Shown here piece by piece: positions 33,470-64,000 of a DNA stretch of 64,000 nucleotides. Position numbers and translations under genes: made by a program. Location: positions 8,980-72,979 of the forward strand of contig JANRKA010000071.1 in the NCBI GenBank assembly GCA_033875325.1, given 5' to 3'. The notes beneath the pieces were generated by a model. The model searched no databases. It was not told the origin of the DNA and saw nothing but the letters and a program-made list of their open reading frames with translations. The stretch comes from Elusimicrobiota bacterium. Lineage in GTDB: Bacteria > Elusimicrobiota > Elusimicrobia > UBA1565 > UBA9628. How positions within the stretch are numbered: position 1 is the stretch's first letter; every line of letters starts with the position of its first letter.

Positions 33470-33650
33470 CTTTGCGGTGGATATTGCCGCGCCCGTGGAC
33501 GGCGTGGACGAGCAGGTCGCCCACCCCGCCCACCGCCGCTTGGATATCTCTGCCCTGCGGGGCGGATCGGTCCGCGACGCTCCACCCGCGCGAGAGGCCG
33601 CGGGGTCCCCGAGATCTCCACAATCTCCACCGCTCGGCGGCGGAGATTTT
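33470..33650 (+). repeat. partial copy (C) of island repeat family
   Basis: It shares 'GCGGTGGATA..CGTGGACGGCGTGGACGAGC.GGTCGCCCACCCCGCCCACCGCCGCTTGGAT', the palindrome GGCGGATCGGTCCGCG, and the tail 'CTCCACCGCTCGGCGGCGGAGATTT' with copies at 36961, 63775 and 35925. Confidence 0.6.
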
Positions 33651-33699
33651 TTCTTCTTCTCCTTCCACGGCACTTCCCGCTCCGCCGCCTCCCTTCTTC

Positions 33700-33923
33700 G
33701 GTCTGGTCCATTTCGCACCTTCTCTCGGGCCGCAGGAGTGAAGCCCGCCTGCGCTGCGGCATAAACGGTCACCCCTCTCGGCGACTCCCCGGCCGCTCCA
33801 GAGCCTTGCTCGTTCCGCTGGCCGGGTCCCTGCCGGGGGACCCACCATTTATTCCTCGCTTCGACGGACTTCCTCGCGACCCTCCACCCTCCGGGCGGGC
33901 GGAGGTGCGAAATGGCCCAGACC
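33700..33923. repeat. imperfect inverted repeat pair bracketing a 184-bp leader homologous to 31743-31959; right copy includes start codon of gene 33912
   Basis: 33700-33719 is GGTCTGGTCCATTTCGCACC. The reverse complement of 33904-33923 is GGTCTGGGCCATTTCGCACC. Similarity continues into the coding region: the left copy encodes MDQTEEGRRRSGK and the right gene begins MAQTYETRRRSGK. Confidence 0.6.
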
Positions 33924-34298
33924 TACGAGACTCGGCGGCGGAGCGGGAAGCACGAAGGCTCTGACGTGAAAGTCCAGGGACGGAGCCAAGCACCCCGGGA
34001 GAAGCACATGAAAACTGGAAAAGCGTTGGGCTTCAAGAAGGGGGACTTCGTCCACACGGGAGCGTTCCCCGGAATCATCATCAGCGACGTGCAGACGTTC
34101 GCGCCGTGTTGCGAGGTTTGGGGCTTCGAGCACGAGATGGGCTCGGCCTACGCCGAGGACATGACGCTTCTGACCTGGGAGAACTTCCAGGAACTCGCCA
34201 AGCGCTTCGGCTTCGACAGCACCGCCGACTCCAAGACGGCGCAGGAGGCCATCGCCAAGGCGAAGGCGGCGGCTTCGGGGGTTCCCGTAACTGCCTGA
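33912..34298 (+). CDS. hypothetical protein
   Basis: It is 128 aa with no recognised domain. It lies downstream of a conserved leader module. Confidence 0.4.
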   Translation: MAQTYETRRRSGKHEGSDVKVQGRSQAPREKHMKTGKALGFKKGDFVHTGAFPGIIISDVQTFAPCCEVWGFEHEMGSAYAEDMTLLTWENFQELAKRFGFDSTADSKTAQEAIAKAKAAASGVPVTA

Positions 34299-34364
34299 TT
34301 CGACCAGGGGTCCCGAGGGCGACCTCGGGGCCCCGAGCCGGGCCAGGCCCGGGAACTGAAACAC

Positions 34365-35894
34365 ATGGAGAAAACAATGAACGAGACGAAAGAGAAGGAA
34401 GCCATGAAGGTGCCGGAGCGCGCGCTGTTGAGCATCCCGCTCGACAAGGTCGAAATCGTGGAGAACGTCCGCAGGAACTTCGACGCGGCTGAAATGAAGG
34501 AACTCGCGGCGAACATTAAGAAGGTCGGCATCCTGCAGAACATCATCGTCATCCGCAACGGCAAGGGAGCCTACACGCTCTCGGCAGGCGAGCGCCGGGT
34601 GCGGGCCGCGCGGATGGCGGGGCTCGTCGAGATTCCCGCGTCCGTGTACGAGGAAGGCGTGGACCCGAAGATGCTCCAGGTGTTCGAGAACCTCCACCGC
34701 AAGGACGTGGGGCCCGTCGAGGAGGCGCGGGGCTTCAAGCACCTTCTCGACGAGGGCAAGCACACCATCGAGGGCCTGGCGCAGGCCGTGGACAAGTCGG
34801 TGAAGTACGTGACGCGCTCGATTCGGCTCCTCGAACTGCCGAAGGCGGCGGTCAAGGCCGTCGAGGCGGGAACGCTCTCGCCCGAGCACGGCCATCAAAT
34901 CCTCCGCGCCCCGGAGGACAAGCGCGAGACGTTCGTGACGTTCGCGCTGACGCCCAAGTGGGGCGGCGGGAGCGACGTGCTTCCCACCATCCACGACCTC
35001 AAGAACGAAATCGAGCGGCGTTTGGAGAAGGACCTCTCGAAGGCCTGCTTCCCGAAGGACAAGGAGTACGCGGGGGCCATGGCCTGCTCGCTCTGCCCGT
35101 TCAACACGGGCAACCAGGACGTGCTGTTCGAAGGGGCCAAGGACGGCAAGTGCACCGACGGCGGGTGCTTCGCCAAGAAAACGTCCACGTTCCTGCGGGA
35201 GTTCCGCGAGGATGCGGGCAAGAAGCTCGGCGGGGTCAAGTTCGCGGGCTACGCGGGCCAGGACCACGGCATGCCGCGCGAGGTCGGCGAGGGCGTCGTG
35301 CTGAGCGCCTCGGAGGCCAAGAGCGAGGCGGTCAAGGCGCTCCTCAAGAAGGACCCCAAGAAGTTCGGCTTCGCCGTGCTCAAGCCGTCGCGGTTCGGGA
35401 GCAAGTCGCCGAGCGCGGTCCTCGTCTGCAACGACAAGGACTTCGTGACGGCGAAGCTCCGCAAGTCCGAGGAGAAGGCCGAGCGCGGTATGAGCGAGGA
35501 GGAGCGGGCCAAGGCTCACTTCGTCGCGACTCATGAGAGCAAGGCGCTGTTCCTCGCGGCGGCGAAGTCGCTCAAGGCAGTCAAGAAGTCGCACTTGGTG
35601 GACGTGGTCATGGCCTTGAACGGCGAGGAGTTGGCGTTCGAGGCCATCGGCGTCGAGGCCGACGAGGACGCGGCGCGGGCGCTCAAGAAGTTGTCCGAGA
35701 AGGACCTCCTGCGCCTGGCGTGGCTGTGCACGGTCCAGCACTACGAGTTAGACGAGCGCCTCTCGGGCCTCATCGAGGTCAAGAAGGTCCGCAAGGAAGC
35801 GCGGACGTTCGCGCACTCTGAGTGGGAGCGCATCCAGAAGGAGGAGGCCGCGAAGGCCGAGGCTCCGAAGGAGGTTGAGCCCGCCGTGAAGTAG
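34365..35894 (+). CDS. ParB/Sulfiredoxin-like nuclease domain protein (plasmid/ICE type)
   Basis: The N-terminal 'ILQNIIVIRNGKGAYTLSAGERRVRAARMAGL' is the ParB GERR-like motif. The long K/E-rich C-terminus has a Cys cluster 'CSLCPFN…CTDGGC'. Confidence 0.7.
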   Translation: MEKTMNETKEKEAMKVPERALLSIPLDKVEIVENVRRNFDAAEMKELAANIKKVGILQNIIVIRNGKGAYTLSAGERRVRAARMAGLVEIPASVYEEGVDPKMLQVFENLHRKDVGPVEEARGFKHLLDEGKHTIEGLAQAVDKSVKYVTRSIRLLELPKAAVKAVEAGTLSPEHGHQILRAPEDKRETFVTFALTPKWGGGSDVLPTIHDLKNEIERRLEKDLSKACFPKDKEYAGAMACSLCPFNTGNQDVLFEGAKDGKCTDGGCFAKKTSTFLREFREDAGKKLGGVKFAGYAGQDHGMPREVGEGVVLSASEAKSEAVKALLKKDPKKFGFAVLKPSRFGSKSPSAVLVCNDKDFVTAKLRKSEEKAERGMSEEERAKAHFVATHESKALFLAAAKSLKAVKKSHLVDVVMALNGEELAFEAIGVEADEDAARALKKLSEKDLLRLAWLCTVQHYELDERLSGLIEVKKVRKEARTFAHSEWERIQKEEAAKAEAPKEVEPAVK

Positions 35895-35906
35895 GCCTGT
35901 TGACTT

Positions 35907-35932
35907 GGCCCATCCGGGAAACCGGGTGGGCC
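35907..35932 (+). terminator. hairpin terminator GGCCCATCCGGG-AAA-CCGGGTGGGCC
   Basis: It is a stable GC hairpin immediately after the ParB-like stop. Confidence 0.5.
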
Positions 35933-36070
35933 TCTGTGAGCGGGTCGTGCCTGGATGAACGGGGAAAACTTCGATGGCCGGAGTTCGCCCCCTGGCGGGG
36001 CGCGGACCGGTCCGCGAGCGCTCCTCCCTGCCGGATCGGCCGCAGGGACCGCGAACTCCGGTGGAACTAA
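35925..36070 (+). repeat. diverged copy (D) of island repeat family
   Basis: It contains the perfect palindrome CGCGGACCGGTCCGCG at 36001-36016, followed by 'GCTCCTCCCTGCCGG…GGGACCGCGAACTCC'. This is similar to the tail of the copy at 63775. Confidence 0.5.
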
Positions 36071-36479
36071 ACGCGGGGGTCGTTCGTATAGCTTGTGTGG
36101 ATCAGGAGACCCCCGACGCATTCCGGTGGGAGGAATGGGACTGGCGGCCGCTGGCGCGCCTCATCGCCTGGGTCCTCCTCGCCGCCCTTTGGGCGCGCTC
36201 GCGAGACATCGTCTCGCTCGCGCTCATTCAGCGCGTTCTCCGCGAGCTCCTGCTCGGCTGGCTGCTCTCCTTCGGCCTGCTGACTTATGTCCAAGCGCTG
36301 ATCGCCACCGCGGCCTTCCGCCTCGCGCTCGCGCTCGACGACGCCGCTTACGGCCTGTCGGAACGCCTCGTGAGGCTCTTCATGCGCCGCGCGTCGTTCG
36401 CCGCGACTTTCGTCGCGGCGTTCGGCGTCGAGCTCACGTTCGTTCTCGGCGCGCTTTGTCTCGTCGTGGGGGCGCTGCG

Positions 36480-36899: not shown

Positions 36900-36960
36900 A
36901 AAAGAGGAAGCCCAGCGCCGAGAGCGCCGGGCCTCCTGTCGAACGAAGCAGCTCCTGGGG

Positions 36961-37270
36961 GAAAAGCTTCGCTCAAGGCGAGTATAGAGCGCGAAGCGTG
37001 GAGCGCGCAAGACCCAAAAAGATAACCCAGCCCCCCATCCGTAAGAGCCGGGTCATCGTCCTATCGAGGGTTGCCTTACGAGGGGCCCCCGACAGAACGG
37101 AGCATAATCCCGGCGCCCGGATATTTCAAGACCCAAAAGTCCCAGGGCTGCGGTGGATACCGCCGCGTCCGTGGACGGCGTGGACGAGCGGGTCGCCCAC
37201 CCCCGCCCACCGCCGCTTGGATTTCTCCGCGCCTGCGGCGCGCGCGGACCGGTCCGCGTGCGCTCCTCCC
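36961..37270 (+). repeat. full-length copy (A) of ~300-bp island repeat family with internal 110-bp insertion
   Basis: 'GAGTATAGAGCGCGAAGC…GCGGTGGATACCGCCGCGTCCGTGGACGGCGTGGACGAGCGGGTCGCCCACCCCCGCCCACCGCCGCTTGGATTTCTCCGCGCCTGCGGCGCGCGCGGACCGGTCCGCGTGCGCTCCTCCCCGCCG' is ~95% identical to 63775-63950. Confidence 0.75.
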
Positions 37271-37395
37271 CGCCGGCGATCCGAAAACCTGGCCCAACCC
37301 CAGCCTAGCCCTTAGTTTTCGAACGGCTAGCGTGCCGCGAGGCGGCCAGCCCGGCTGCACACTCGAACAAGACTAGTGTCGCTCGTCTCGCGAAT

Positions 37396-37412
37396 ATACC
37401 CACCCCCAGTAT
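37396..37412 (+). promoter_or_regulatory. candidate CsoR/RcnR-type operator ATACCCACCCCCAGTAT
   Basis: It is a G/C-tract flanked by inverted TAC…GTA arms. This resembles RcnR/CsoR operators (TACT-G6-N-AGTA type). It lies 15 bp upstream of the regulator's ATG. Confidence 0.55.
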
Positions 37413-37426
37413 GCTATGCTAGGGAC

Positions 37427-37678
37427 ATGTCTCACGGGACAACCAAGAAGCGCGGACTCCTCAACCGCGTCAATAGAATCCGCGGGCAGGTCGAGGCGAT
37501 CGGCCGCGGCCTCGAAGACGAGCGTGACTGCTCGAGCCTTCTGCAGACCATCGCTGCGTGTCGAGGCGCCATCGATGGCCTCATGGCGGAGGTGATCGAG
37601 GATCACATCAAATCCCATCTCACCGAGCCCCGCGCGACCCGAACGCTGCTCGCCGTCGTCCGTTCATATTTGAAGTAA
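37427..37678 (+). CDS. CsoR/RcnR/FrmR-family metal-sensing transcriptional repressor
   Basis: 'LNRVNRIRGQVEAIGRGLEDERDCSSLLQTIAACRGAIDGLMAEVIEDHIKSH' gives the C-H-C ligand pattern of DUF156. Confidence 0.75.
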   Translation: MSHGTTKKRGLLNRVNRIRGQVEAIGRGLEDERDCSSLLQTIAACRGAIDGLMAEVIEDHIKSHLTEPRATRTLLAVVRSYLK

Positions 37679-37696
37679 AGACAAGAAGAGGACATT

Positions 37697-37963
37697 ATGG
37701 ACCCGAAGATCGTGATGACCGCATTCTCGATGCTGTTCCTCGCCGAGATGGGGGATAAGACCCAGCTCGCCGTGCTCACTTTGAGCGCATCGAGCGGCAG
37801 GCCCGGGTCGGTGTTCATCGGCGCGGCGGCGGCCTTGATCGCGGTCACGGCGCTCGGGGCCTTTATAGGCGCCGCTACTGGACGGTTCGTTTCGCCCGTG
37901 CTGCTCAACCGGGTCGCGGCGACGTCCTTTATCGCCATAGGCTTATGGATGTGGGCGCGCTGA
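37697..37963 (+). CDS. UPF0016 (GDT1/TMEM165/MneA) half-size cation transporter subunit
   Basis: It has the signature 'E-x-G-D-K-T-Q' (EMGDKTQL) in TM1 and 3 TM helices. Confidence 0.7.
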   Translation: MDPKIVMTAFSMLFLAEMGDKTQLAVLTLSASSGRPGSVFIGAAAALIAVTALGAFIGAATGRFVSPVLLNRVAATSFIAIGLWMWAR

Positions 37964-37964
37964 T

Positions 37965-38918
37965 ATGCACAACGAATCAATAGAGCGTTGGACCCATGAC
38001 CACGTCTTCGGCCAAGATCGCCCGCGGTCGGGAGAAAGCCGGACGCAACTCGTGATCGTCATCACGGCGGTCATGATGGCGCTTGAGATCGGAGCCGGAA
38101 TCGCCTACGGCTCGATGGCGCTGCTGGCGGACGGGCTCCACATGGCCTCGCACGCTTCCGCGCTTGCCATCTCAGCGTTGGCCTATTACTACACCAGGCG
38201 GCACGCCCATGACGCGCGCTTCAACTTCGGCACAGGCAAGATCAACTCGCTGGCCGCCTTCGCGAGCGCGACGCTGCTCGCGGCATTCTCCGTGATCATG
38301 ACCTGGCAGAGCGCGGCGCGGCTCCTCGCTCCGGTCAAGATCGAGTTCAACCAGGCGATCCTCGTCGCCACCCTGGGATTGGCGGTCAACGGCGTCTGCC
38401 TGCTCATCCTCAAAAACCGCGGGCACTCGCACGACGACGAGCACGAGCATGCTCACGACGATCATGGGCACGCCGAGGATAGCGATCACAACCTCTGGTC
38501 CGCCTATTTGCACGTCCTGGCCGACGCCCTCACTTCGGTCTTGGCGATCGCGGCGCTGCTCGCCGGAAAGCGATTCGGCATGACATGGATGGACCCGGCC
38601 ATGGGCATGCTGGGCGCCGCGCTCGTCATCCGCTGGGCCTGGCAGCTTCTGCGCGCATCAAGCCATGTCCTCCTGGATATGCAGGCCCCGGAGACGATGC
38701 GGCGGGCCATCTGCGAGGCGATCGAGCGGCGCGGGAATGCCCGAGTGACGGACCTCCACGTATGGTCCGTGGGTCCTGGAATCTATGCGGCGGAGATCGG
38801 CGTCGTCGCCTCGGAGCCCGCGAGCGCGGACGAATACCGCAAGCTTCTTCCTGAAGCGCTTGGCGTCGTCCATGTCACGGTCGAGGCGCAGCGCTGCGAG
38901 TCGCGCGCCTCGGCATAG
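37965..38918 (+). CDS. czcD: cation diffusion facilitator (CzcD-type) metal efflux transporter
   Basis: It has the CDF TM core ('HMASHASALAIS', 'YLHVLADALTSV'), a His-rich loop 'HSHDDEHEHAHDDHGHAED' and a C-terminal cytoplasmic domain. Confidence 0.85.
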   Translation: MHNESIERWTHDHVFGQDRPRSGESRTQLVIVITAVMMALEIGAGIAYGSMALLADGLHMASHASALAISALAYYYTRRHAHDARFNFGTGKINSLAAFASATLLAAFSVIMTWQSAARLLAPVKIEFNQAILVATLGLAVNGVCLLILKNRGHSHDDEHEHAHDDHGHAEDSDHNLWSAYLHVLADALTSVLAIAALLAGKRFGMTWMDPAMGMLGAALVIRWAWQLLRASSHVLLDMQAPETMRRAICEAIERRGNARVTDLHVWSVGPGIYAAEIGVVASEPASADEYRKLLPEALGVVHVTVEAQRCESRASA

Positions 38919-38927
38919 GCCGATCTC

Positions 38928-40145: not shown

Positions 40146-40213
40146 GATCAAAGACGGGCTCGAGACCAGGGCGCTGTCCAGCAGGGCAGCTATAGCGAAA
40201 AACACGATTTTTC

Positions 40214-40279
40214 TTATTGAGATTGATTTTCAATAAGAATTGTGTTAGGCTCTCCCTTATTGAAATGACATTTCAATAA
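40214..40279 (+). promoter_or_regulatory. two AT-rich palindromic operators (TTATTGAGATTGATTTTCAATAA and perfect TTATTGAAATG-A-CATTTCAATAA) upstream of siderophore locus
   Basis: It is an AT-rich island in GC-rich DNA. The second site is a perfect 11+1+11 palindrome immediately before the RBS AAAGGAGG. A Fur/metalloregulator-box-like architecture is possible. Confidence 0.55.
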
Positions 40280-40292
40280 GAAAGGAGGGCCG

Positions 40293-40505
40293 GTGCGCGA
40301 GAAGATAGCTGATGACGGGACCCGGGGCGAGGTCACGCTTTGCGGTTCCTGCGATGACGCGCACGTCCGCTGGGGCCGCCTGACGCTCAGCATTCCCCGA
40401 GAGGAATTCCTCAGGCTCGCGGACATGCTCGCTCGCGCCGCCGCCGATCTCTCGCGTGAGCCCGCCAAGAGGCCCGCGTGGAACGCGGCAGGACCGCTGC
40501 AGTGA
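40293..40505 (+). CDS. small hypothetical protein (70 aa) with Cys pair CGSC
   Basis: It has a strong RBS. It overlaps (GTGA) a possible GTG start of the synthetase. Confidence 0.3.
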   Translation: MREKIADDGTRGEVTLCGSCDDAHVRWGRLTLSIPREEFLRLADMLARAAADLSREPAKRPAWNAAGPLQ

Positions 40506-55916: not shown

Positions 55917-56051
55917 TGGATGAGATGGGCATGCGGGGTTATGTCGCCGCCGCCTGCATGCTCGGAGGCGTCGCCTTTATCGTCGTTGCCCTTCATACGT
56001 TGTGTAAGCATCGGGAAGATGATCATTAGAGAGCAGTTAGGAGTCGTCTAA

Positions 56052-56534: not shown

Positions 56535-56590
56535 CCGGCGGCCGCGGAAGCGGCTGATCGACGTGAAACAGATTTTAGGAGAACGATAAG

Positions 56591-58795
56591 ATGAGCGCCG
56601 AGACGAGCAGTTTTAAGATACGCGGGATGGATTGCGCCGAAGAAGTCTCCACCTTGAAACGGGAAGTTGGGCCTCTGGTCGGCGGCGAGGGCAAGCTCTC
56701 CTTTGACCTTCTCAACGGCAAGATGACGGTGCAGTCGCCGGCGGCGCCTTCTTCCGCGATCGTCGAGGCCGTCGCGCGGACGGGAATGCACGCGCAGCCG
56801 TGGGATGGAACGGTTGATTCCGGCGATTCGAGCTCTCAAGCCCCACAGCGAGCGATTCTCACGGGCGCGAGCGGCCTCTGTCTTGTGTCGGGATACCTAG
56901 CCCACGCCTGGCTTTCCGGGAGCTTCTTGGCTGCGATGGGGTCGGAAGGGCTCGGCCTGGCCCATGGCGTGCCCATGGCGGCGCGCGCCCTCTACGGCTT
57001 CGGGATATTGGCGGGTTCCTGGCTGATCCTGCCGAAGGCGATATTCGCGGCGAGGCGCCTGCGGCCCGATATGAACCTGCTGATGACCGTCGCCGTCATC
57101 GGGGCGATCGGCATAGGGGAATGGTTCGAGGGCGCCACCGTCTCCTTCTTGTTTTCCGTGGCGCTGCTCCTCGAGTCATGGAGCGTCGGACGCGCGCGTC
57201 GGGCAATCGCGGCGCTCATGGAGTTGTCGCCGTCCGTCGCGCACCTGAAGCTCGAGGACGGCACGTTGCGCGAAACTCCTGCCGGCGAGGTGCCGGTGGG
57301 CGCCGTCTTCGTGGTCAAGCCGGGAGACAAGATCCCGCTCGACGGCCTCGTGGTCGCGGGCGAGAGCGCTGTCAATCAGGCGCCGATAACGGGAGAGAGC
57401 ATGCCCGCGGCGAAGGCACCAGGCGGCGTCGTGTATGCCGGCACAATCAACGGCGACGGAGCGCTCGAGGTCAAGTCGACGAAGGCCGCGGGACAGACGA
57501 CTTTGGCCCACATCATCCGGCTGGTGGGGGAAGCCCAGAGCAAGCGCTCGCCCTCGGAGCAGTGGGTGGAGAAATTCGCGAGGATCTATACGCCCGCCGT
57601 CATGCTCCTCTCCCTCGCCGTCCTCCTCGTCCCGCCCTTGCTCTTCGGAAGCCCTTGGACGCCGTGGCTTTACCGCTCCTTGGTCCTGCTCGTCATCGGC
57701 TGCCCCTGCGCGCTCGTCATCTCGACGCCGGTGACGGTCGTCGCCGCCCTCGCTGCCGCCGCCAAGAACGGCGTGCTGCTTAAAGGGGGGACTTTTGTCG
57801 AGACGCCGGCGCGGCTGAAGGCCGTCGCGTTCGACAAGACCGGAACTTTGACGAAGGGCGAGCCGGCGGTCGTGTCGGTCGCGGCGCTCGGCGGGCACAC
57901 CGAGACCGAGCTGCTCGAGATCGTCGCCGCCATGGAGGCGCATAGCGGTCATCCGCTGGCGAAATCCATCATGGCCTACGCCCAACAGAAGGGCATCCGA
58001 CCGGCCGCGGCAAGCGGCTTCGAGATCATCCAGGGCAAAGGCGCGACGGCGACCGTGAACGGAGAACGATACTGGCTCGGCTCGCATCGCTACCTGGAGG
58101 AGCGCAAGCAGGAGACGAAAGAAGTCCACGATATGCTCGAGACCATGACGAGCTCGGGGCGCAGCGTCGTGATCGTCGGGGATGAAAAGCACGTCTGCGG
58201 ACTCATCGCGCTCGCGGATACGGTCCGGCCCGAGGCCCGAAGGACTTTGGAGGCGCTGCACGCGGAGGGCATCGAGCACCTCGTGATGCTCACCGGCGAC
58301 AACAAGGGAACGGCGGACGCGATCGCCAAAGAACTGGGTCTCGACGAAGTCTACGCCGAGTTGCTCCCTCAAGACAAAGTCTCCGCGATCGAGAAGCTGG
58401 TCTCACGCTACGGCTCGGCGGCGATGGTAGGAGACGGCGTCAACGACGCGCCCGCCCTCGCGGCCTCGACCATGGCGGTGGCGATGGGCGCCGCGGGAAG
58501 CGACGCGGCGATCGAGACCGCCGACGTGGCGCTGATGTCGGACGACCTTTTGAAGCTGCCTTGGCTCATGCGCCACTCCCGGCGCAGCCTTCGGATCATC
58601 CGTCAGAACATAGGCCTATCACTCTTGACCAAGGCCGCCTTCGTGCTGCTGACGTTTCTAGGTTACGCTTCGCTGTGGAGCGCGATCGCGGCGGATATGG
58701 GTGTGTCGTTGATCGTGATCTTCAACGCCTTGCGGCTGCTCGCTGATTCAGGGCAGGACCATCGAACCGGTAATGACTCGGCGAAAGGGCGATAA
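56591..58795 (+). CDS. heavy-metal translocating P1B-type ATPase (CPC motif)
   Basis: It has an N-terminal HMA-like domain ('FKIRGMDCAEEV'), the TM6 'CPC', 'DKTGTLT', 'GDGVNDAPAL' and 'HEGSTVVV'-like hinge motifs. Confidence 0.9.
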   Translation: MSAETSSFKIRGMDCAEEVSTLKREVGPLVGGEGKLSFDLLNGKMTVQSPAAPSSAIVEAVARTGMHAQPWDGTVDSGDSSSQAPQRAILTGASGLCLVSGYLAHAWLSGSFLAAMGSEGLGLAHGVPMAARALYGFGILAGSWLILPKAIFAARRLRPDMNLLMTVAVIGAIGIGEWFEGATVSFLFSVALLLESWSVGRARRAIAALMELSPSVAHLKLEDGTLRETPAGEVPVGAVFVVKPGDKIPLDGLVVAGESAVNQAPITGESMPAAKAPGGVVYAGTINGDGALEVKSTKAAGQTTLAHIIRLVGEAQSKRSPSEQWVEKFARIYTPAVMLLSLAVLLVPPLLFGSPWTPWLYRSLVLLVIGCPCALVISTPVTVVAALAAAAKNGVLLKGGTFVETPARLKAVAFDKTGTLTKGEPAVVSVAALGGHTETELLEIVAAMEAHSGHPLAKSIMAYAQQKGIRPAAASGFEIIQGKGATATVNGERYWLGSHRYLEERKQETKEVHDMLETMTSSGRSVVIVGDEKHVCGLIALADTVRPEARRTLEALHAEGIEHLVMLTGDNKGTADAIAKELGLDEVYAELLPQDKVSAIEKLVSRYGSAAMVGDGVNDAPALAASTMAVAMGAAGSDAAIETADVALMSDDLLKLPWLMRHSRRSLRIIRQNIGLSLLTKAAFVLLTFLGYASLWSAIAADMGVSLIVIFNALRLLADSGQDHRTGNDSAKGR

Positions 58796-59073
58796 CAAGA
58801 GGAGGACTCGGCGTTCTAGGGTCTGGTATGCGTGGATTTTCCGTGCGGTCATTCTGACGATTGTCGTGGGCGGGGGCACCTTGCTCTTTCGTCGTGCGGC
58901 GGAATCGATCGAATGCTCTTCGTCGGAGCACAAGCGCCGTTTCCACGGCCCCTTGCCTGCCGGCGGCAAGCGTGAAGAGTGTCCGTGCCGTTGACGGCTG
59001 CCATCTTCCGGCCGTTGCCCAGCGATAAGCGATAACCTTGACAAACTTCGACATGAGGGTTATAAATGACACG

Positions 59074-59472
59074 ATGATCAGAGGCCTTGCGCCGTGCACG
59101 AAGTTTATAGCGGGCGCCCTCATTGCCGCGCTGACTGCCATCGCCACGCAAGCGCCGCTCATCGCCCACGCGGTCGGGCACTGGGCCGCGTCCGCTCACG
59201 AGCACAGCCACGGCGAAGCGATTCACCGCCACGACCATGACGCCCAGCACGATCACGAGTTGCGCATCCAGACAAGTCCGCTGTCGGTCGTGCCCGCCAA
59301 GTTCGTCAATAAGTTTGACCAGAACCTCCTACCGCTCTGTGTTCTGACCTCCGTGACGGCCGCGCTTCACATGAACATCGTCTCCGCCGATGCGTGGAAG
59401 GTGCGGGGCCCGCCTCTCCCGCTCTCGCGTTCCTTCCCTCCCGCCTACAGCACGGCTCCTCCGGCCGTCTAG
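59074..59472 (+). CDS. secreted His-rich protein
   Basis: It has a signal peptide and then 'HAVGHWAASAHEHSHGEAIHRHDHDAQHDHE'. Confidence 0.4.
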   Translation: MIRGLAPCTKFIAGALIAALTAIATQAPLIAHAVGHWAASAHEHSHGEAIHRHDHDAQHDHELRIQTSPLSVVPAKFVNKFDQNLLPLCVLTSVTAALHMNIVSADAWKVRGPPLPLSRSFPPAYSTAPPAV

Positions 59473-59592
59473 CTTCCGGGTCCCGTCCTGGGAACCGGCT
59501 TTCTCCGCGTCAGTCGCCGGGCACGCCCCGCCGAAAGGGTCGTGTAAATTGAGCGGCCACGAAGAATTAAACGTCTAACGGGGAATCAAATC

Positions 59593-60321
59593 ATGCATCA
59601 GGAAAACATTCAGCTTGAGAGCCGCCGACGCGGATTTAGCAAAGCGTTTATCTTTATGGCCTTGTTCGCGGCGTTGGCGGTGTTCATCCCGGACGCCGGC
59701 GCTCACGGGGTGACTGCGGGCGACAAGGGCTATATCCAGGAAAGTTCCGGCAGCCTGGTTTTTCCGTTCATCTACCTGGGCGCAAAGCACATGGTCACGG
59801 GGTACGATCACCTGCTGTTCCTGTTCGGCGTGATCTTTTTCCTCTACCGCTTCAGAGACATCGGCGTTTACGTCAGCCTGTTCGCGGTGGGGCATACGGT
59901 CACGCTCCTATTGGGCACGCTGATGAAGATAAGCGTCAGCGCCTACCTGATCGATGCCGTGATCGGCTTCTCGATCGTCTATAAGGCTCTCGATAATATG
60001 GGGGCGTATCAGAGGTGGTTCGGCTTTCAGCCTAACACCAAGGCGGCCACGCTGATCTTCGGCCTGTTCCATGGGTTCGGTCTTGCCACCAAGATCCTTG
60101 AGTACAAGGTCTCGCCGGACGGGCTTTTCTTGAATCTCGTCTCTTTCAACGTCGGAGTGGAGTTGGGACAACTGCTGGGCCTGGCCATGATCCTCATCGG
60201 CATGGGCTTTTGGCGGCGGTCGGACAACTTCATGCGGCACGCTTACGCCGCGCAGGTGGTTTTGATGACGGGAGGTTTCCTCCTGGTTGGATATCAACTT
60301 GCCGGATTTTTTGTCGCTTAA
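59593..60321 (+). CDS. HupE/UreJ-family metal (Ni/Co) transporter
   Basis: It has 'GAKHMVTGYDHLLFLFGV' (H-x4-G-x-DH signature) and 6 TM helices. Confidence 0.7.
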   Translation: MHQENIQLESRRRGFSKAFIFMALFAALAVFIPDAGAHGVTAGDKGYIQESSGSLVFPFIYLGAKHMVTGYDHLLFLFGVIFFLYRFRDIGVYVSLFAVGHTVTLLLGTLMKISVSAYLIDAVIGFSIVYKALDNMGAYQRWFGFQPNTKAATLIFGLFHGFGLATKILEYKVSPDGLFLNLVSFNVGVELGQLLGLAMILIGMGFWRRSDNFMRHAYAAQVVLMTGGFLLVGYQLAGFFVA

Positions 60322-60332
60322 GGAGAACACTC

Positions 60333-60974
60333 ATGTACAACGCGAACATGCCTGACAAATCAGAACTCCCTTCAACGGAGAAGCTCGTCAAGTCCACCAT
60401 CCTGGCCGCCGTTTCGGCCGGCGTTCTTTTGGTCACGGTCGTTATGCCGGCTGAATATGGCATCGACCCTACCGGCGTGGGCCGCATTCTAGGCTTGAAG
60501 AGAATGGGGGACATTAAAGTATCCCTGGCACGAGAAGCCGCTGCCCAGCAGACCGCGGACCCGGCCGCCGGCGACCAAACTGCGGCCCGGCCCATAGAGG
60601 CGGCAGTGCCTGCCGTCGCGCCGGAGACAAAGCCAGCCGCAGCCGCGGCGGGAAATCGCGCCGACGAAATGCAGGTAACCCTCGCCCCCAATGAAGGAAC
60701 CGAGATCAAGGTCGAACTGGCCAAAGGCAGGAAGGTTGATTACATCTGGGCGACCGACGGCGGCCCCGCCAACTTCGACCTTCACGGCGATTCCAAAAAG
60801 CTGAAAATCGATTATCACGGATACGGCAAGGGTTCGGAGCAGAAGAGCCAAGGCACTCTAATGGCCGCGTTCGACGGGAGCCACGGCTGGTTCTGGAGAA
60901 ACCGAACGCCCAATACGCTCACCGTGACTCTTAAGGTTCACGGCGAACACACCGGCATCAAGCACATGAAGTAA
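60333..60974 (+). CDS. membrane-anchored hypothetical protein
   Basis: It has an N-terminal TM segment, an Ala/Pro-rich linker and a beta-rich C-terminus 'DYIWATDGGPANFDLHGD'. Confidence 0.4.
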   Translation: MYNANMPDKSELPSTEKLVKSTILAAVSAGVLLVTVVMPAEYGIDPTGVGRILGLKRMGDIKVSLAREAAAQQTADPAAGDQTAARPIEAAVPAVAPETKPAAAAAGNRADEMQVTLAPNEGTEIKVELAKGRKVDYIWATDGGPANFDLHGDSKKLKIDYHGYGKGSEQKSQGTLMAAFDGSHGWFWRNRTPNTLTVTLKVHGEHTGIKHMK

Positions 60975-61089
60975 GGACCTTTTCAATGAAAAGCGCACAC
61001 GACCACGATCAGACGACGTCGCAGGGACACAAGCACGGCGATGCCGCGATCCACGTCGATCCGTCGGGGAGAGGAAGGGGACCTTCATC

Positions 61090-62322
61090 ATGACGCGCAC
61101 TGAAACCGAGATGAACCGCCGGTCCAGCCTCGACTCTCTTTTCCCGCTGAACTACGACCGCGGAATCTGGCTGCCGGCGGGTTTGGCCGTGGTAGGGTTC
61201 GCAGGATTGGAGATGGTCTTTCACCTCGGCGGCGCCGCAGCCCAGGCGGGGATGCCTGACTTCCTCACGGAGGTCCGGGAAAGGACAGGATTCCGATTCT
61301 GGGATTTTCTATACCGCATCGGCTACTCGCTCCTGGTAATCCCCTTCCTCCTGCCCGCCGCAAGGGCTATTCAGGGGGCCTTGCGGAGACTCCTCGTCGC
61401 CTATCTATTGGCCCTGGGCGCCGGGGGACTGCTGGCGATATCTCTTCGGCCGGGAACCCTTGAGGCCGTCCCTTGTCTGCTGATCGCGGGCTGCGCCATC
61501 GTCACGCTGTTCTTCGCCAGGAGCGGGTTCTTCGCGATGACGGCTTTGGCGGCCGGCGCGACCACGACCGCGGCGTTGGCAACGTTCATGATCGAGCTCC
61601 ATGGCCCCATCGACATCGTTTCCGGCCTCGCATTGGGAACAATCGCCTTCCATCTCGCCTTCTCGAAGCCTCTGTTCTTTCTCGATCGCCCCAGTCCCTG
61701 GACGGGGATCGAGCACGAACTGGACAACCTTTGGAATCTCTTCGTCTCCAATACCCGACAGAAGTGGGAGCGCAACTACGCCTCGGGCTCGTGGGATTTC
61801 CTGAATTCGCCGTCGCAGCGCGGGCGCCACTACGCGATCGCGGGAATCGTCGCCGATCGTCATCCGGACGGAGGAGCCCGGGTCCTCGACGTGGGCTGCG
61901 GGCTCGGCACGCTGTACCCGCTGCTGAAGGGGCGCGTCTGTTCGTACTCGGGCCTCGACCTTTCCGAGGAGGTGATCAAGCGCTGTCGTTCCGCCTTCGC
62001 GGACGATCCGAACTGCACTTTCGCCAGCGGAGCCTTCGAGGATTTTCCGGCGCAGGAGCCCTTCGACGTCGTCGTGCTCAACGAGGTCCTGTACTACTTT
62101 CCCGTCTCGCGAGCCGTCGAGGTCTTCCAGAAGGCGCTCTCGCACGCCGGAGACGATGGTTTCGTCGTCGTCTCCATGAACCGTTCATGGAAAGGGCGCC
62201 TGATCCGGGCGCGACTGAACGCGATCTCGCCTCCGGTTCAAAGCCTGAGGATCACCAATCTCCAGACGGGAAGCTACTGGACCGTCGAAGTCTACAGCCG
62301 TGCCAAAGGAGAACATGGATGA
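61090..62322 (+). CDS. membrane domain fused to class I SAM-dependent methyltransferase
   Basis: It has 5-6 N-terminal TM helices. The C-terminus has motif I 'RVLDVGCGLGTLY' and motif post-I 'YSGLDLSEEV'. Confidence 0.5.
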   Translation: MTRTETEMNRRSSLDSLFPLNYDRGIWLPAGLAVVGFAGLEMVFHLGGAAAQAGMPDFLTEVRERTGFRFWDFLYRIGYSLLVIPFLLPAARAIQGALRRLLVAYLLALGAGGLLAISLRPGTLEAVPCLLIAGCAIVTLFFARSGFFAMTALAAGATTTAALATFMIELHGPIDIVSGLALGTIAFHLAFSKPLFFLDRPSPWTGIEHELDNLWNLFVSNTRQKWERNYASGSWDFLNSPSQRGRHYAIAGIVADRHPDGGARVLDVGCGLGTLYPLLKGRVCSYSGLDLSEEVIKRCRSAFADDPNCTFASGAFEDFPAQEPFDVVVLNEVLYYFPVSRAVEVFQKALSHAGDDGFVVVSMNRSWKGRLIRARLNAISPPVQSLRITNLQTGSYWTVEVYSRAKGEHG

Positions 62323-62771
62323 TGACAAGACTAGCCGTGCTATTCGCCGCGCTTCTGGCCGCTTCGACCTCTCTCGCCCACGACGAAGGCCACGGTCCCA
62401 GGCTCATGGAGGAGCCTCCCAAGCAAGGCGGGCTCATCGCTTCGGTCGTAGACGCGAAGGACGCAAAACTCGGGCCGGAGGCTCCGCTCGTCTATAAAGC
62501 CGAGTTGATCCGCTCGGATGACGGGACGATGCGTCTTTTCCTTTATGACGCCAAGATGGCGCCGCTAGATGGGGCCGCCTTCGAGAAGAAGGCGAACGCG
62601 ATCATTCTATCAGGGAAAAAGAAGAACAAGAAGCGCAGCTTCTCGCTGAGCAGGGAAGGCGGCGTCTACTCCGGCGTTGCTCCCAAGGCCCCGAGCCGCC
62701 CCTTCAACCTCGAGGTCTCGCTCAAAGACGGTAAGCGGTCCTTGCTCGTGGCGTTTGAGAATCTAGACTGA
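62319..62771 (+). CDS. secreted hypothetical protein
   Basis: Signal peptide MMTRLAVLFAALLAASTSLA. It is followed by 'HDEGHG'. Confidence 0.35.
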   Translation: MMTRLAVLFAALLAASTSLAHDEGHGPRLMEEPPKQGGLIASVVDAKDAKLGPEAPLVYKAELIRSDDGTMRLFLYDAKMAPLDGAAFEKKANAIILSGKKKNKKRSFSLSREGGVYSGVAPKAPSRPFNLEVSLKDGKRSLLVAFENLD

Positions 62772-62877
62772 CGCCGCACATCTGGCCCTCGTGGCTCATT
62801 GGTGTTTGGGTCTCGTCTAGTCCTGCGAGTCGCACGCTGCCTTCCGCGCGACCTAGAAAAATTCTTTAATTGCAGAA

Positions 62878-62932
62878 TAGGCGATGGAGTTCGCCTGAAC
62901 CGCCTCCGCCCAGGAGGCTGATGACTCCTACC
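62878..62932 (+). ncRNA. fluoride riboswitch (crcB RNA motif)
   Basis: 'GGCGATGGAGTTCGCC…AACCGCC…CTGATGACTCCTAC' matches the aptamer consensus (P1 GGCGAUGG/GUUCGCC, pseudoknot ACCGCC, 3' CUGAUGAnUCCUAC). It lies directly upstream of crcB. Confidence 0.85.
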
Positions 62933-62966
62933 GGAAGACGTTCTGGTAGGAGTCATTTTCATTTTA
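62921..62966 (+). terminator. riboswitch expression-platform terminator (ATGACTCCTACC…GGTAGGAGTCAT + TTTCATTTT)
   Basis: The 5' arm of the hairpin is the 3' strand of the aptamer. This is a mutually exclusive fold, typical of transcriptional ON riboswitches. Confidence 0.65.
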
Positions 62967-62980
62967 GAGGAGTGAGCAAT

Positions 62981-63355
62981 ATGGATAAGTCAATACCGCT
63001 TGTTTTCGGCGCGATCTTGGGTGTATTCGCGCGTTATCTGGTCGCGACGAGGATCTACATGATGACTGGGACCGGCTTCCCGTTTGGAACCTTGGCCGTC
63101 AATATCTCCGGCTGCCTCCTAGTAGGAGTCTTTGACAGCTGGGCAGGGGACCGCGGACTGATCGGGCCGGCGGGGCGCCTATTTCTCATGACCGGGTTCT
63201 GCGCGACCTACACGACCTTCTCGACTCTCATCCTCGAGAGTGCGCACCTCATCAGCAACGGGCAGATCGCCCGCGCCCTGGCGTACTATCTCGGGAGTGG
63301 CGTCCTGGGATTCGTGAGCTTCCGTCTGGGCGCGTTCCTTGGGAGAATATTCTAG
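62981..63355 (+). CDS. crcB: fluoride ion channel CrcB/FluC
   Basis: It has 'IPLVFGAILGVFARYLV…GTLAVNISGCLLVG' and 4 TM helices. It is preceded by RBS GGAG. Confidence 0.85.
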   Translation: MDKSIPLVFGAILGVFARYLVATRIYMMTGTGFPFGTLAVNISGCLLVGVFDSWAGDRGLIGPAGRLFLMTGFCATYTTFSTLILESAHLISNGQIARALAYYLGSGVLGFVSFRLGAFLGRIF

Positions 63356-63774
63356 GAGGCGGCATGGAGAAGGAGGTGCGCTGGCTAGGAAGCCTCCATG
63401 GCGGGTTATTGTCCCCACGCAGCGCGCGTGGATGAAGCCACTAAAATTCGTATTTGACTCGGCCGCCTGATTCGGGGCGAGTCATCCACCGCGGGTCCTG
63501 GCCAGCGATAACTTGGAGAAGAAGGGGAAGGTCTTGATGACGCGAACCGAGGCCTCCGCAGCACTGGGTCGCAGCAGCATGGCCTGAAGCCAATGGCCGA
63601 TGCGTAGGCGCGCGGCGAATCGGCGTAACCGTTCAAGCTGCCGAGTGTCCGTTCGTCGTTGTAGTCCGTCCGTCAGGCTTCGATCACGCCTTTCGCCTCG
63701 ACAATCGTCACGAACCGATTGTCGTGAGGTATTCCTCGCGAAAACGTCTGTTTAGGGGAAAAGATTCGCTCGAG

Positions 63775-64000
63775 CCGAGTATAGAGCGCGAAGCAGTACC
63801 TGCGTAAGACCCAATGCTTGCGGTGGATACCGACGCGTCCGTGGACGGCGTGGACGAGCGGGTCGCCTACCCCGCCCACCGCCGCTTGGATTTCTCCGCG
63901 CCTGCGGCGCGCGCGGATCGGTCCGCGTGCGCTCCTCCCCGCCGTGCGGCCGGCGGGGACCGAGAACTCCACCGTCTCCACCGCTCGGCGGCGGAGATTT
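63775..64000 (+). repeat. copy (B) of ~300-bp island repeat family, running off window end
   Basis: It is near-identical to 36969-37270 minus the 110-bp insert. It continues into the 'CCACCGCTCGGCGGCGGAGATTT' tail shared with copy C (33630-33650). Confidence 0.75.

What the first reader, a model, noticed from the sequence alone, without database searches (positions are those of the whole stretch)
33470..64000. Island-specific ~300-bp repeat family carrying a perfect 16-bp palindrome CGCGGACCGGTCCGCG (4 copies, all upstream of genes)
The copies are at 33470-33650, 35925-36070, 36961-37270 and 63775-64000. They share 'GCGGTGGATA', a second palindrome 'CGTCCGTGGACG', 'CGGGTCGCCCACCCCGCCCACCGCCGCTTGGAT', and the 16-bp perfect palindrome. 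Palindrome positions are 36001-36016 and 37243-37258, with one-mismatch versions at 33561 and 63911. Each copy sits in an intergenic region just 5' of a gene or operon start. Two near-identical copies bracket the resistance module as direct repeats. This fits a reiterated operator/promoter cassette for an element-encoded dimeric regulator, or recombination sites.
Basis: seen in the sequence. Interest (0 to 1): 0.65.

Follow-up and report, generated by a model that had tools for sequence, protein, structure and literature searches.

The report
Repeated structured leaders before island genes
The "palindrome repeat" is one small hairpin inside a conserved, heavily folded non-coding cassette of about 500 bases. 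The cassette sits in front of each operon of a horizontally transferred gene module and most resembles the single-stranded-DNA promoters (Frpo/ssi) that conjugative plasmids use to switch on their first genes in a new host.

Summary
Each is a ~500-nt cassette. It has an upstream ~190-nt multi-hairpin domain (R), which holds the palindrome as one stem. It also has a ~300-nt imperfect hairpin (H) whose base pairs with the ribosome-binding site, start codon and first ~15 codons of the downstream gene. There are five co-oriented copies: before radC1, orf128-parB, TM-radC2, the cargo (degenerate) and an ECF sigma gene just beyond the window. The same cassettes occur in Elusimicrobia, Bryobacteraceae and Armatimonadota MAGs and in 51 metagenome contigs. 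Compensatory base changes are strong (R 0.155 vs 0.057, H 0.232 vs 0.077; 0/500 shuffles each). There is no Rfam, plasmid (PLSDB) or viral (IMG/VR) match. Two divergent relatives place H-sigma directly upstream of a co-oriented TrwC relaxase. F plasmid's Frpo1/Frpo2 units have the same size, two-part build, reiteration and template-strand bias. Best reading (0.42): Frpo/ssi-like cassettes acting as folded single-stranded DNA. Main rival (0.27): an mRNA leader. The operator idea for XRE/CsoR is not supported. The direct repeats around the metal-resistance cargo are two such cassettes, probably substrates for homologous recombination.

The parts
31630..31700 (+). Truncated R ('mini-R'): half-palindrome hairpin GGGTCGGTCCGCGGGCGCTCC plus a short P6 hairpin. 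A 92%-identical copy follows the sigma gene beyond the window (L005 697-658), so mini-R copies bracket the module.
31685..31995 (+). H cassette (copy E): long imperfect hairpin with perfect 30-nt arms at 31703-31732 / 31960-31989. The right arm holds the RBS GGAGGTGG, the ATG (31970) and the first codons of radC1. Invariant CTGCGGCATAAACGG lies opposite CCATTTATTCCTC.
31970..33422 (+). radC1 (31970-32518), DUF6878 (32587-33051) and DUF6915 (33048-33422): operon driven from copy E, ending in terminator hairpin 33437-33470.
33468..33662 (+). R domain (copy A): multi-helix fold P1, P2/P3 and P5 enclosing P4, the palindrome hairpin (33561-33576, 2 mismatches) and P6. It ends in a GC hairpin followed by a T-run.
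33663..33950 (+). H cassette (copy A): hairpin arms 33673-33727 / 33896-33950. The right arm covers the RBS, the ATG at 33912 and ~13 codons of orf128.
33912..35894 (+). orf128 (33912-34298) and a ParB-like gene (34365-35894; PRTRC-ParB-like).
35979..36060 (+). Copy D: the 3' half of R only (P4, exact palindrome 36001-36016, P6).
36063..36088 (+). ECF-type promoter GGAAC-N17-CGTA, conserved in 10/10 related loci. It lies 8 nt upstream of the GTG (36097) of the TM protein-radC2 operon (36097-36899).
36956..37360 (+). Degenerate cassette B. It comprises seg a (36956-37017), a 120-nt insert (37018-37136), R lacking its 3' end (37144-37286, exact palindrome 37243-37258), and an H apical fragment (37264-37360). 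The internal deletion lies between two CTCCCCGCCG repeats. Cargo starts at 37361.
37361..63743 (.). Metal/fluoride-resistance cargo (CsoR/RcnR-like, GDT1, CDF, MFS, RND, crcB and others), bracketed by cassettes B and C. It is absent from the relatives L024, L065 and L068.
63744..64000 (+). Cassette C: seg a (63744-63814) plus R (63814-64000, palindrome 63912-63927 with 1 mismatch), cut by the window end. L005 shows the rest: H, then a 200-aa ECF sigma gene, then mini-R.

Best explanation
The repeats are copies of a two-part, ~500-nt structured non-coding cassette (R + H). The cassette belongs to a horizontally transferred 'establishment' gene module: radC, DUF6878/DUF6915, orf128-parB, TM-radC2 and an ECF sigma. 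It works through nucleic-acid folding, not through a palindromic operator.

Most likely it is the functional counterpart of the Frpo/ssi units of conjugative-plasmid leading regions. When the element enters a cell as single-stranded DNA, the strand that is template for these genes (the window's minus strand) would fold. H would form a ~300-nt imperfect hairpin containing an invariant 5-bp A/T helix flanked by fixed mismatches, from which RNA polymerase starts. R would form a compact multi-hairpin domain, either an accessory or a priming signal. Early genes, including the sigma factor, would be made before the complementary strand exists. The sigma factor would then drive the conventional GGAAC-N17-CGTA promoter of TM-radC2.

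Once the DNA is double-stranded the cassette is silent. It has no recognisable double-strand promoter. R ends in a terminator-like hairpin plus T-run. Any read-through transcript that contains the left arm of H buries the ribosome-binding site, the start codon and ~15 codons in a very stable stem (predicted MFE of the whole H hairpin -121 to -176 kcal/mol, RNA parameters).

Shown: the anatomy, its conservation, the covariation, the occlusion of the translation start, the co-orientation, the template-strand bias of R, and the relaxase linkage in two relatives.
Inferred: transfer as single-stranded DNA, initiation within H, and the role of R.
For: (1) Structure is under selection.
- R: 92.4% of cells paired vs 82.5% in shuffles; 39/57 pairs changed on both sides; covariation 0.155 vs 0.057 (0/500 shuffles); slid controls <=0.031.
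- H: 96.5% vs 86.9%; covariation 0.232 vs 0.077 (0/500); slid controls <=0.045.

(2) H folds far better than shuffles on either strand (z -5.8 to -11).

(3) Template-strand bias.
- R folds better on the template strand after composition control: mean z -4.5 vs -2.8, in 13/14 copies.
- F's genuine Frpo hairpins show the same bias: z -8.7/-8.2 vs -6.6/-5.5.

(4) F's repeated unit matches in build.
- It is 541 nt at 90% identity, made of a ~200-nt part plus a ~320-nt hairpin, and sits just upstream of ssb and ygeA.
- Its leading genes, including a ParB-family gene, all point toward oriT (PMC9849209).

(5) All cassette copies in every locus are co-oriented with each other and with the genes they precede.

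(6) Downstream genes are of the leading-region type.
- H precedes sigma 30 times, RadC 15, orf128 7, ParB 1 and DUF6878 1.
- 86 of the 113 matching PLSDB records, matched through the DUF6915 gene, are typed conjugative, and in one (non-mobilizable) plasmid inspected DUF6878 lies immediately upstream beside a strawberry-notch gene.

(7) L134 and L173 have H-sigma-(DUF6573)-TrwC relaxase in the same orientation. L134 adds a zeta toxin and a transposase. L151 has a tyrosine integrase.

(8) No sigma-70 promoter lies on the gene strand in any cassette, and radC1 has only a divergent gene upstream. By contrast, a clean ECF promoter is conserved where H is absent.

(9) Transfer across phyla: cassettes are 72-94% identical in Elusimicrobia, Bryobacteraceae and Armatimonadota, and the island is 62% GC in a 72% GC host.
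Against: - No oriT, relaxase or type IV secretion gene lies in the window or within 10 kb of the close relatives.
- In L073, L194 and L159 the module abuts housekeeping genes, and in L194 it is a ~4.5-kb islet with no mobility genes. A promoter active only on single-stranded DNA would leave sigma unexpressed there.
- No -35/-10 consensus can be read in the H stem. The same scan also finds none in F's proven Frpo2, so this test is uninformative.
- H itself shows no strand preference once composition is controlled: z -5.7 vs -5.5.
- Wobble counts do not favour the template strand. In H, G-U and A-C are 7 vs 7. In R, plus-strand G-U (212 cells) exceeds A-C (104).
- R ends in a hairpin plus T-run that makes sense only on the gene strand, and it has a terminator/antiterminator-like alternative pairing.
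- There is no sequence similarity to F's units.
- F's hairpin stops ~60 nt before the start codon, whereas this one includes it.
Confidence: 0.42

Rival explanations
1. Purely RNA-level leader. R+H would be transcribed as a ~500-nt 5' leader on the gene strand. R would act as a transcription attenuator or riboswitch-like sensor: a closing helix GCGGUGGA:UCCACCGC competes with a 5' hairpin plus a 3' terminator hairpin and U-run. H would be a translational lock that buries the RBS and AUG until an unknown factor, processing event or internal start releases it.
For: - A terminator-like hairpin plus T-run ends R in most copies.
- The alternative long-range helix shows a compensatory U-A (37) to C-G (5) change.
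- Conserved plus-strand G-U pairs occur in P1 and P2, and G-U exceeds A-C at 212 vs 104 cells.
- The three-hairpin junction looks like an aptamer.
- H pairs with the RBS, ATG and ~15 codons whatever the gene is.
- An extended -10 promoter (TGGTAGAAT) lies ~100 nt upstream of R in L073 (read from the sequence).
- The model works in resident chromosomal islets that have no transfer genes.
Against: - The gene strand is C- and T-rich (GC skew -0.08 in R, -0.17 in H).
- R on that strand folds only marginally better than shuffles (mean z -2.8, against -4.5 for the opposite strand).
- The terminal hairpin carries an A-C mismatch in 41 copies. It is a mismatch on this strand but a G-T wobble on the other.
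- Internal cassettes directly follow a strong terminator, and radC1's cassette follows a divergent gene, so most copies have no upstream promoter.
- A hairpin with a predicted folding energy beyond -100 kcal/mol would block translation permanently unless transcription starts inside it.
- No Rfam family matches.
Confidence: 0.27
2. One reading: the 16-bp palindrome (and CGTCCGTGGACG) are operators for an element-encoded dimeric regulator (XRE, CsoR-like or another protein) that co-regulates all the operons.
For: - The palindrome's outer half-sites are invariant and only its centre varies, which also fits an operator.
- In copy D the 3' half of R lies ~57 nt upstream of the -35 box of a real ECF promoter, a plausible activator position.
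Against: - The palindrome sits inside a covarying multi-helix fold.
- Conservation extends over ~500 nt.
- Cassettes are conserved in loci without any XRE-type gene, and CsoR belongs to cargo that relatives lack.
- The left half tolerates changes that keep hairpin pairing (A-U to G-U) rather than keeping symmetry.
Confidence: 0.08
3. Recombination sites or a mobile palindromic element. The cassettes (or the mini-R copies that bracket the module) would be sites for cassette gain and loss, or H would be a MITE-like palindromic element that inserted at gene 5' ends.
For: - Cargo is flanked by direct cassette repeats and is absent in relatives.
- Operon content between cassettes varies among elements.
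- Mini-R direct repeats lie at both module ends.
- H has long terminal inverted arms and contributes N-terminal codons: the H-linked sigma carries ~21 extra residues compared with an H-less homologue. This recalls Rickettsia palindromic elements (own knowledge).
Against: - No recombinase is conserved with the cassettes.
- Copies are never dispersed. None occurs in 27 kb of host DNA or 26 kb of cargo, and all 72 mapped H copies precede a few gene families.
- The arms covary to keep pairing rather than to keep sequence.
- No attC-like or IS-like features were found.
- Homologous recombination between 500-nt repeats explains the cargo without any dedicated site.
Confidence: 0.08

Closest known systems
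Frpo1/Frpo2 of plasmid F and ssi1-3 of ColIb-P9 (single-stranded DNA promoters of conjugative leading regions; Masai & Arai 1997, cited from PMC11541004 and PMC9849209)
   Same: - Reiterated homologous units of ~0.5 kb (541 nt, 90% identical in F), immediately upstream of successive co-oriented operons.
- Two-part build: a ~200-nt part plus a ~300-320-nt imperfect hairpin.
- The hairpin is more stable on the template strand.
- Downstream genes include a ParB-family protein.
- Genes point toward the relaxase/oriT side (L134, L173).
   Different: - No sequence similarity.
- Host phyla are Elusimicrobia, Acidobacteria and Armatimonadota.
- No -35/-10 boxes could be recognised.
- The hairpin here extends through the RBS, the start codon and ~15 codons.
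- The upstream domain here is itself significantly structured (z -4.7), whereas F's is not (z -1.5).
- One driven gene is an ECF sigma factor.
- Many copies sit in islands with no visible transfer genes.
Single-strand origins (sso) of rolling-circle plasmids and ICEBs1 sso1; G4/phiX-type priming signals (own knowledge)
   Same: Orientation-specific, strongly folded single-stranded DNA regions of 150-300 nt, recognised by host RNA polymerase or primase. R on the template strand is a compact cluster of GC hairpins.
   Different: None of the conserved sso motifs (RSB, CS-6) was looked for or seen. sso elements are not tied to gene starts and are not reiterated before each operon.
Fold-back inhibition of read-through transcripts (IS10/IS50 transposase mRNAs; hok mRNA) (own knowledge)
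   Same: An upstream segment pairs with the translation-initiation region, so only transcripts that start inside the element are translated.
   Different: The scale is a ~300-nt hairpin rather than tens of nucleotides. The same cassette is shared by unrelated genes.
Terminator/antiterminator leaders and riboswitch expression platforms
   Same: R ends in a hairpin plus U-run whose 5' half can instead pair with the 5' end of R. The aptamer-like junction covaries.
   Different: There is no ligand or partner, no Rfam match, and the gene strand folds poorly relative to shuffles.
Rfam motifs linked to radC or antirestriction genes (radC, STAXI) and T-box leaders (recalled from memory as leads)
   Same: They lie upstream of radC-type and DNA-handling genes of mobile elements. 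A GGUGGAUACCGC stretch recalls the T-box sequence.
   Different: cmscan of all 4227 Rfam 15 families found nothing in the cassettes, even at E<=10.

Membership tests
Frpo/ssi single-stranded DNA promoters | Lies in the leading region next to oriT, with the transferred strand as template of the downstream genes | tested here: inconclusive
   Two divergent relatives (L134, L173) have H-sigma directly upstream of a co-oriented TrwC relaxase. No relaxase, oriT or T4SS lies in the window or within 10 kb in close relatives.
Frpo/ssi single-stranded DNA promoters | A ~300-nt imperfect stem-loop in the single strand | tested here: met
   H gives z -8.7 to -10.3 on the template strand with covariation 0.232 vs 0.077. 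This is comparable to F's Frpo hairpins.
Frpo/ssi single-stranded DNA promoters | Canonical -35 and -10 boxes reconstituted in the stem | tested here: inconclusive
   No consensus promoter was found in the cassettes. Only an invariant A/T helix (CATAAA / AATAAA) flanked by mismatches is present. The same scan also fails on F's proven Frpo2.
Frpo/ssi single-stranded DNA promoters | Homologous copies reiterated before successive co-oriented operons | tested here: met
   The window has five copies, L067 has 4 H + 3 full R (plus one partial R), and all are co-oriented.
Frpo/ssi single-stranded DNA promoters | Sequence homology to the known Frpo/ssi elements | tested here: not met
   nhmmer of the R and H profiles against the F leading region found nothing below E 0.45.
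Frpo/ssi single-stranded DNA promoters | RNA polymerase initiates on the single-stranded form, giving early expression after transfer | not testable with these tools
   Needs in vitro transcription or conjugation reporters.
Known structured RNA families (Rfam 15) | Covariance-model match | tested here: not met
   Only the fluoride riboswitch at 62871-62937 reaches threshold. No match lies in the cassettes at E<=10.
Transcription attenuator / riboswitch-like leader | Intrinsic terminator with a mutually exclusive antiterminator helix | tested here: met
   A hairpin plus T-run ends R. The alternative closing helix shows UA37/CG5 covariation.
Transcription attenuator / riboswitch-like leader | The fold is specific to the transcribed (gene) strand, and a promoter lies upstream | tested here: not met
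   Plus-strand z averages -2.8 against -4.5 on the minus strand, in 13/14 copies. Most copies follow a terminator or a divergent gene. L073 has a possible upstream promoter.
Palindromic operator of a dimeric regulator | Symmetric conservation of both half-sites, and co-occurrence with the regulator gene | tested here: not met
   The inner left half varies while pairing is kept (AU51, GU12). Cassettes are conserved without XRE or CsoR.
MITE / IS fragment | Dispersed copies at unrelated sites | tested here: not met
   Copies occur only before module genes. None is in host DNA or cargo. There are no hits in PLSDB or IMG/VR.
MITE / IS fragment | Target-site duplications at the ends | not tested
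   No empty-site comparison was available.

The most novel reading that the evidence does not exclude
This would be a previously undescribed family of Frpo-like single-stranded-DNA expression cassettes outside the classical plasmid hosts. Each copy supplies the promoter, ribosome-binding site, start codon and ~15-20 N-terminal codons to whatever establishment gene lies behind it. One copy launches an element-encoded ECF sigma factor, giving an early (single-strand) to middle (sigma-dependent) cascade. R could alternatively be a new class of large structured regulatory nucleic acid.
Probability: 0.35. Interest if true: 0.8.

Novelty: new variant of a known kind. Interest (0 to 1): 0.66.

Why it matters
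Single-stranded promoters are known experimentally only from a few enterobacterial plasmids. Searches for more have relied on similarity to those plasmids and on E. coli promoter boxes.

A structurally analogous but unrelated family in Elusimicrobia, Acidobacteria and Armatimonadota would show that the strategy is general. It would also provide a covariation-defined model for finding leading regions in uncultivated lineages. And it would reveal a variant in which the hairpin also locks translation and tags the proteins' N-termini.

Even if the RNA-leader reading is right, R+H is a large, well-supported structured element absent from Rfam.

Practically, the result explains how a 26-kb metal-resistance cargo sits between two recombinogenic repeats.

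Tried and rejected
- **Rfam.** Searches at gathering score and at E<=10 found nothing in the cassettes.
- **Sequence databases.** PLSDB blastn matched only the DUF6915 gene. IMG/VR pattern scans gave no true copies.
- **Sigma-70 promoter scans.** These found nothing on the gene strand. The scan also fails on F's Frpo2, so its absence is not informative.
- **ECF motif GGAAC-N15-18-CGTA.** It is present only at copy D, not in R or H. The apparent GAAAAC '-35' in the H apex is really one strand of a covarying sub-hairpin.
- **Strand assignment from wobble counts.** Inconclusive. In H, G-U and A-C are 7 vs 7. In R, plus-strand G-U exceeds A-C, yet the terminal hairpin has 41 A-C mismatches. Counts of 1x1 mismatches in single-sequence folds favoured the minus strand but are not independent events.
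- **Large MAFFT alignments.** They were too gappy for RNAalifold, so I used a covariance model for R instead.
- **Minus-strand ORF across R.** Rejected, because indels in the alignment are not multiples of three.
- **T-box, attC and sigma-54 resemblances.** I checked these by eye and dropped them.
- **Homology to F's Frpo.** None.
- **69 of the 120 metagenome pattern hits** were chance matches.
- **First shuffle script** timed out.

Full report
**1. Observation**

The exact 16-mer is at 36001 and 37243. A one-mismatch copy is at 63912 and a two-mismatch copy at 33561. Five matches at <=2 mismatches were found against 0.48 expected.

Self-comparison confirms four similar stretches:
- 37137-37275 vs 63806-63944: 94% identity.
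- 33472-33649 vs 63818-64000: 84%.
- 36000-36059 vs 63911-63970: 85%.
- 36958-37017 vs 63755-63814: 85%.

All four lie in the 62-66% GC island that starts near 27-28 kb. The host DNA is 72% GC.

Directly downstream of two copies lie ~280-nt imperfect inverted repeats: 33673-33727/33896-33950, and 31703-31732/31960-31989, the latter with perfect 30-nt arms. A truncated fifth copy lies at 31630-31700.

**2. Anatomy**

L005 is an Armatimonadota MAG contig that is 100% identical to window 63740-64000. Using it, the full unit can be read.

The unit has three parts:
- An optional ~60-nt 'seg a'.
- R, ~190 nt.
- H, ~300-330 nt.

R is a set of hairpins:
- P1.
- A long helix P2 enclosing the variable hairpin P3.
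- A long-range helix P5 (UGGAUUUCUC : GAGAACUCCA) enclosing three hairpins: P4, the 'palindrome' (GCGGA-YCGG-UCCGC) and P6.
- A terminal GC hairpin followed by a T-run.

H is a long imperfect hairpin. An invariant CTGCGGCATAAACGG in the left arm faces an invariant CCATTTATTCCTCG in the right arm. Together they form a 5-bp A/T helix flanked by fixed C-A and C-T mismatches.

The base of H pairs the left arm with the RBS (GGAGGTG), the start codon and about 15 codons of the downstream gene. Because of this, unrelated proteins share N-termini such as MKKTCKIVVRDGKG (sigma), MKNKTCVKV (RadC) and MAQTYETRRRSGK (orf128). The H-linked sigma carries ~21 extra residues compared with an H-less homologue (no H in L071/L072).

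The window's copies precede these genes:
- radC1-DUF6878-DUF6915 (mini-R + H).
- orf128-parB (R + H).
- TM protein-radC2 (3' half of R plus a conserved ECF promoter GGAAC-N17-CGTA, 8 nt from the GTG at 36097).
- The cargo (a degenerate R + H fragment).
- The ECF sigma gene just beyond the window (R + H).

**3. Relatives**

An 18-mer scan of species genomes found 12 true loci: 10 in Elusimicrobia MAGs, plus one Bryobacteraceae and one Armatimonadota MAG. Each had several copies at the same syntenic positions.

A metagenome scan with the H core gave 51 true loci among 120 hits. Contexts fetched through sigma homologues show the same module. Its left flanks vary and carry defence cargo: dnd, PDC-S11, an SMC-like ATPase gene and a GTPase system. 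Its right flanks also vary.

L067 has four H and three full R copies plus one partial, one of them in front of DUF6878. Across 72 mapped H copies, the downstream gene is sigma 30 times, RadC 15, orf128 7, ParB 1 and DUF6878 1; the rest are small ORFs.

All copies in a locus share one orientation. There is no match in Rfam 15, PLSDB or IMG/VR.

**4. The fold is selected**

For R I built a covariance model from my hand-drawn structure and aligned 79 matches:
- 92.4% of cells pair, against 82.5% in shuffles.
- 39 of 57 pairs changed on both sides.
- Covariation is 0.155 against 0.057 (0/500 shuffles); slid controls are <=0.031.

Examples of covarying pairs:
- P5: GC31/UA29/CG4 and UA52/AU11.
- P4: CG35/GC23.
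- P6: UA47/AU17 and UA44/CG19.
- P3: AU22/GC14.

The palindrome is helix 9. Its four outer pairs never vary. The closing pair is A-U in 51 copies and G-U in 12.

For H (23 copies): 96.5% of cells pair against 86.9% in shuffles, 18 of 41 pairs changed on both sides, and covariation is 0.232 against 0.077.

Caveats:
- Copies are related, so cells are not independent events.
- The R alignment was fitted to the model.
- The H structure was derived from the same alignment on which the pairs were then counted.

**5. Which strand?**

The gene strand is C- and T-rich.

After dinucleotide-shuffle control, R folds better on the opposite (template) strand: mean z -4.5 against -2.8, in 13 of 14 copies. 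For the window copy the values are -5.1/-4.3 against -1.6/-2.0.

H shows no clear preference: z -5.7 against -5.5. In absolute terms its template strand is 9-13 kcal/mol (DNA parameters; 9-34 with RNA parameters) more stable.

Wobble counts are mixed. In H, G-U and A-C are 7 vs 7. In R, plus-strand G-U (212 cells, with conserved positions in P1 and P2) exceeds A-C (104 cells). However, the terminal hairpin has an A-C in 41 copies, which would be a G-T on the other strand.

R also has an alternative closing helix, GCGGUGGA:UCCACCGC, with a UA37/CG5 compensatory change. This helix excludes both P1 and the terminal hairpin.

**6. Link to conjugation, and the F comparison**

DUF6915 brought in 113 PLSDB plasmid records, 86 of them typed conjugative; in the one (non-mobilizable) plasmid inspected, DUF6878 sits immediately upstream, beside a strawberry-notch gene. 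The ParB is PRTRC-like.

In L134 the order is RadC, H-sigma, DUF6573, a 290-nt gap, and then a TrwC relaxase (1145 aa), a zeta toxin and a transposase. L173 repeats H-sigma-TrwC. All are co-oriented. L151 has a tyrosine integrase 2.5 kb from R-H-RadC.

In F, the Frpo1/Frpo2 repeat is 541 nt at 90% identity. It is made of a ~200-nt part plus a ~320-nt hairpin and sits just upstream of ssb and ygeA. The leading genes, including a ParB-family gene, all point to oriT. The template-strand hairpin is the more stable one: z -8.7/-8.2 against -6.6/-5.5.

The literature shows that these units drive early expression from single-stranded DNA, and that they are recognised as recombination substrates (PMC9849209; PMC11541004). 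There is no sequence similarity between the two families.

**7. Mechanism**

I favour an Frpo/ssi-like role (0.42). The template strand would fold on entry, polymerase would start in H near the mismatched A/T helix, and the early proteins made would include the ECF sigma. The sigma factor would then use the conserved double-strand promoter of TM-radC2.

In the resident double-stranded state three features would keep the genes off:
- The lack of any gene-strand promoter.
- The terminator-like end of R.
- The burial of the translation start in any transcript that contains the left arm.

The weak points are the missing transfer genes near close relatives, islets beside housekeeping genes (L073, L194, L159), the unrecognised promoter boxes, and the gene-strand features of R.

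The main rival is a purely RNA leader, that is, an attenuator plus a translational lock (0.27). Operator (0.08) and recombination-site/MITE (0.08) readings are weaker.

**8. The cargo**

Cassette B (36956-37360) is degenerate. It carries a 120-nt insert and a deletion between two CTCCCCGCCG repeats, and it ends in the H apex. The cargo runs to 63743, where the complete cassette C begins.

Relatives have radC2-cassette-sigma with nothing between them. The direct repeats are therefore two cassettes. Homologous recombination between such repeats is enough to explain gain or loss of the cargo.

**9. Verdict**

The operator interpretation is not supported. The element is best filed as a new variant of the Frpo/ssi kind, and membership is unproven. 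Alternatively it is a new structured leader.

Noticed in passing
window 27704-28027 (-), with 27479-27530: A tRNA gene (anticodon loop reads GAA, so Phe) is split by a ~240-nt group I intron (Rfam RF00028, 47.4 bits, E 8e-11, just under the gathering score of 50). ARAGORN missed it. A 90%-identical copy of the tRNA 3' half lies 173 nt away, like an old attachment-site scar at the island edge.
   Followed up: partly
window 36063-36097 and the same position in 9 related loci: A conserved ECF-type promoter TGGAAC-N16/17-CGTA lies only ~8 nt from the start codon of the TM protein-radC2 operon. This implies a leaderless mRNA, probably driven by the island's own sigma factor.
   Followed up: partly
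window 37018-37136; L043 3954-4071: A 120-nt insert inside cassette B is 82% identical to a segment in a Bryobacteraceae locus. It carries a minus-strand sigma-70-like promoter (TTGAAA-17-TATGCT) followed by a minus-strand terminator, and may be a small RNA gene or a mini-insertion.
   Followed up: no
window 31630-31668 and L005 697-658 (after sigma); also L024, L023, L025, L001, L038, L065: A short form of R (half-palindrome hairpin plus a 4-bp P6) occurs both before the first cassette and after the sigma/DUF6573 genes. The conserved module is therefore bracketed by ~40-nt direct repeats, beyond which the flanks differ between genomes.
   Followed up: partly
window 62871-62937: A fluoride riboswitch (62.4 bits) lies upstream of crcB, at the right end of the cargo.
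   Followed up: no
window 37396-37412: ATACCCACCCCCAGTAT lies just upstream of the CsoR/RcnR-like gene and looks like that repressor's own G/C-tract operator. It is separate from the repeat family.
   Followed up: no
window 30092-31627 (-): A 511-aa NucS-like + DUF4268 protein matches the PADLOC candidate defence family PDC-S11. Other elements carry dnd, SMC-like or GTPase defence genes at the same left flank, so this position is a defence-cargo hotspot.
   Followed up: partly
window 40210-40283: An A/T-rich 28-nt inverted repeat (TTTCTTATTGAGATTGATTTTCAATAAG / CTTATTGAAATGACATTTCAATAAGAAA) lies between divergent cargo genes and looks like an operator.
   Followed up: no
window 49732-49869: Two tandem 69-nt repeats (78% identical) lie inside a cargo ORF and encode a repeated charged, His-rich peptide.
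   Followed up: no
L073, L065, L067, L151 (right of sigma): In several genomes the sigma gene is followed by an OmpR-type response regulator and a giant (>4600 aa) NHL/Big/ZU5 surface protein, in one case with a type IX secretion sorting tail. Their relation to the module is unknown.
   Followed up: no
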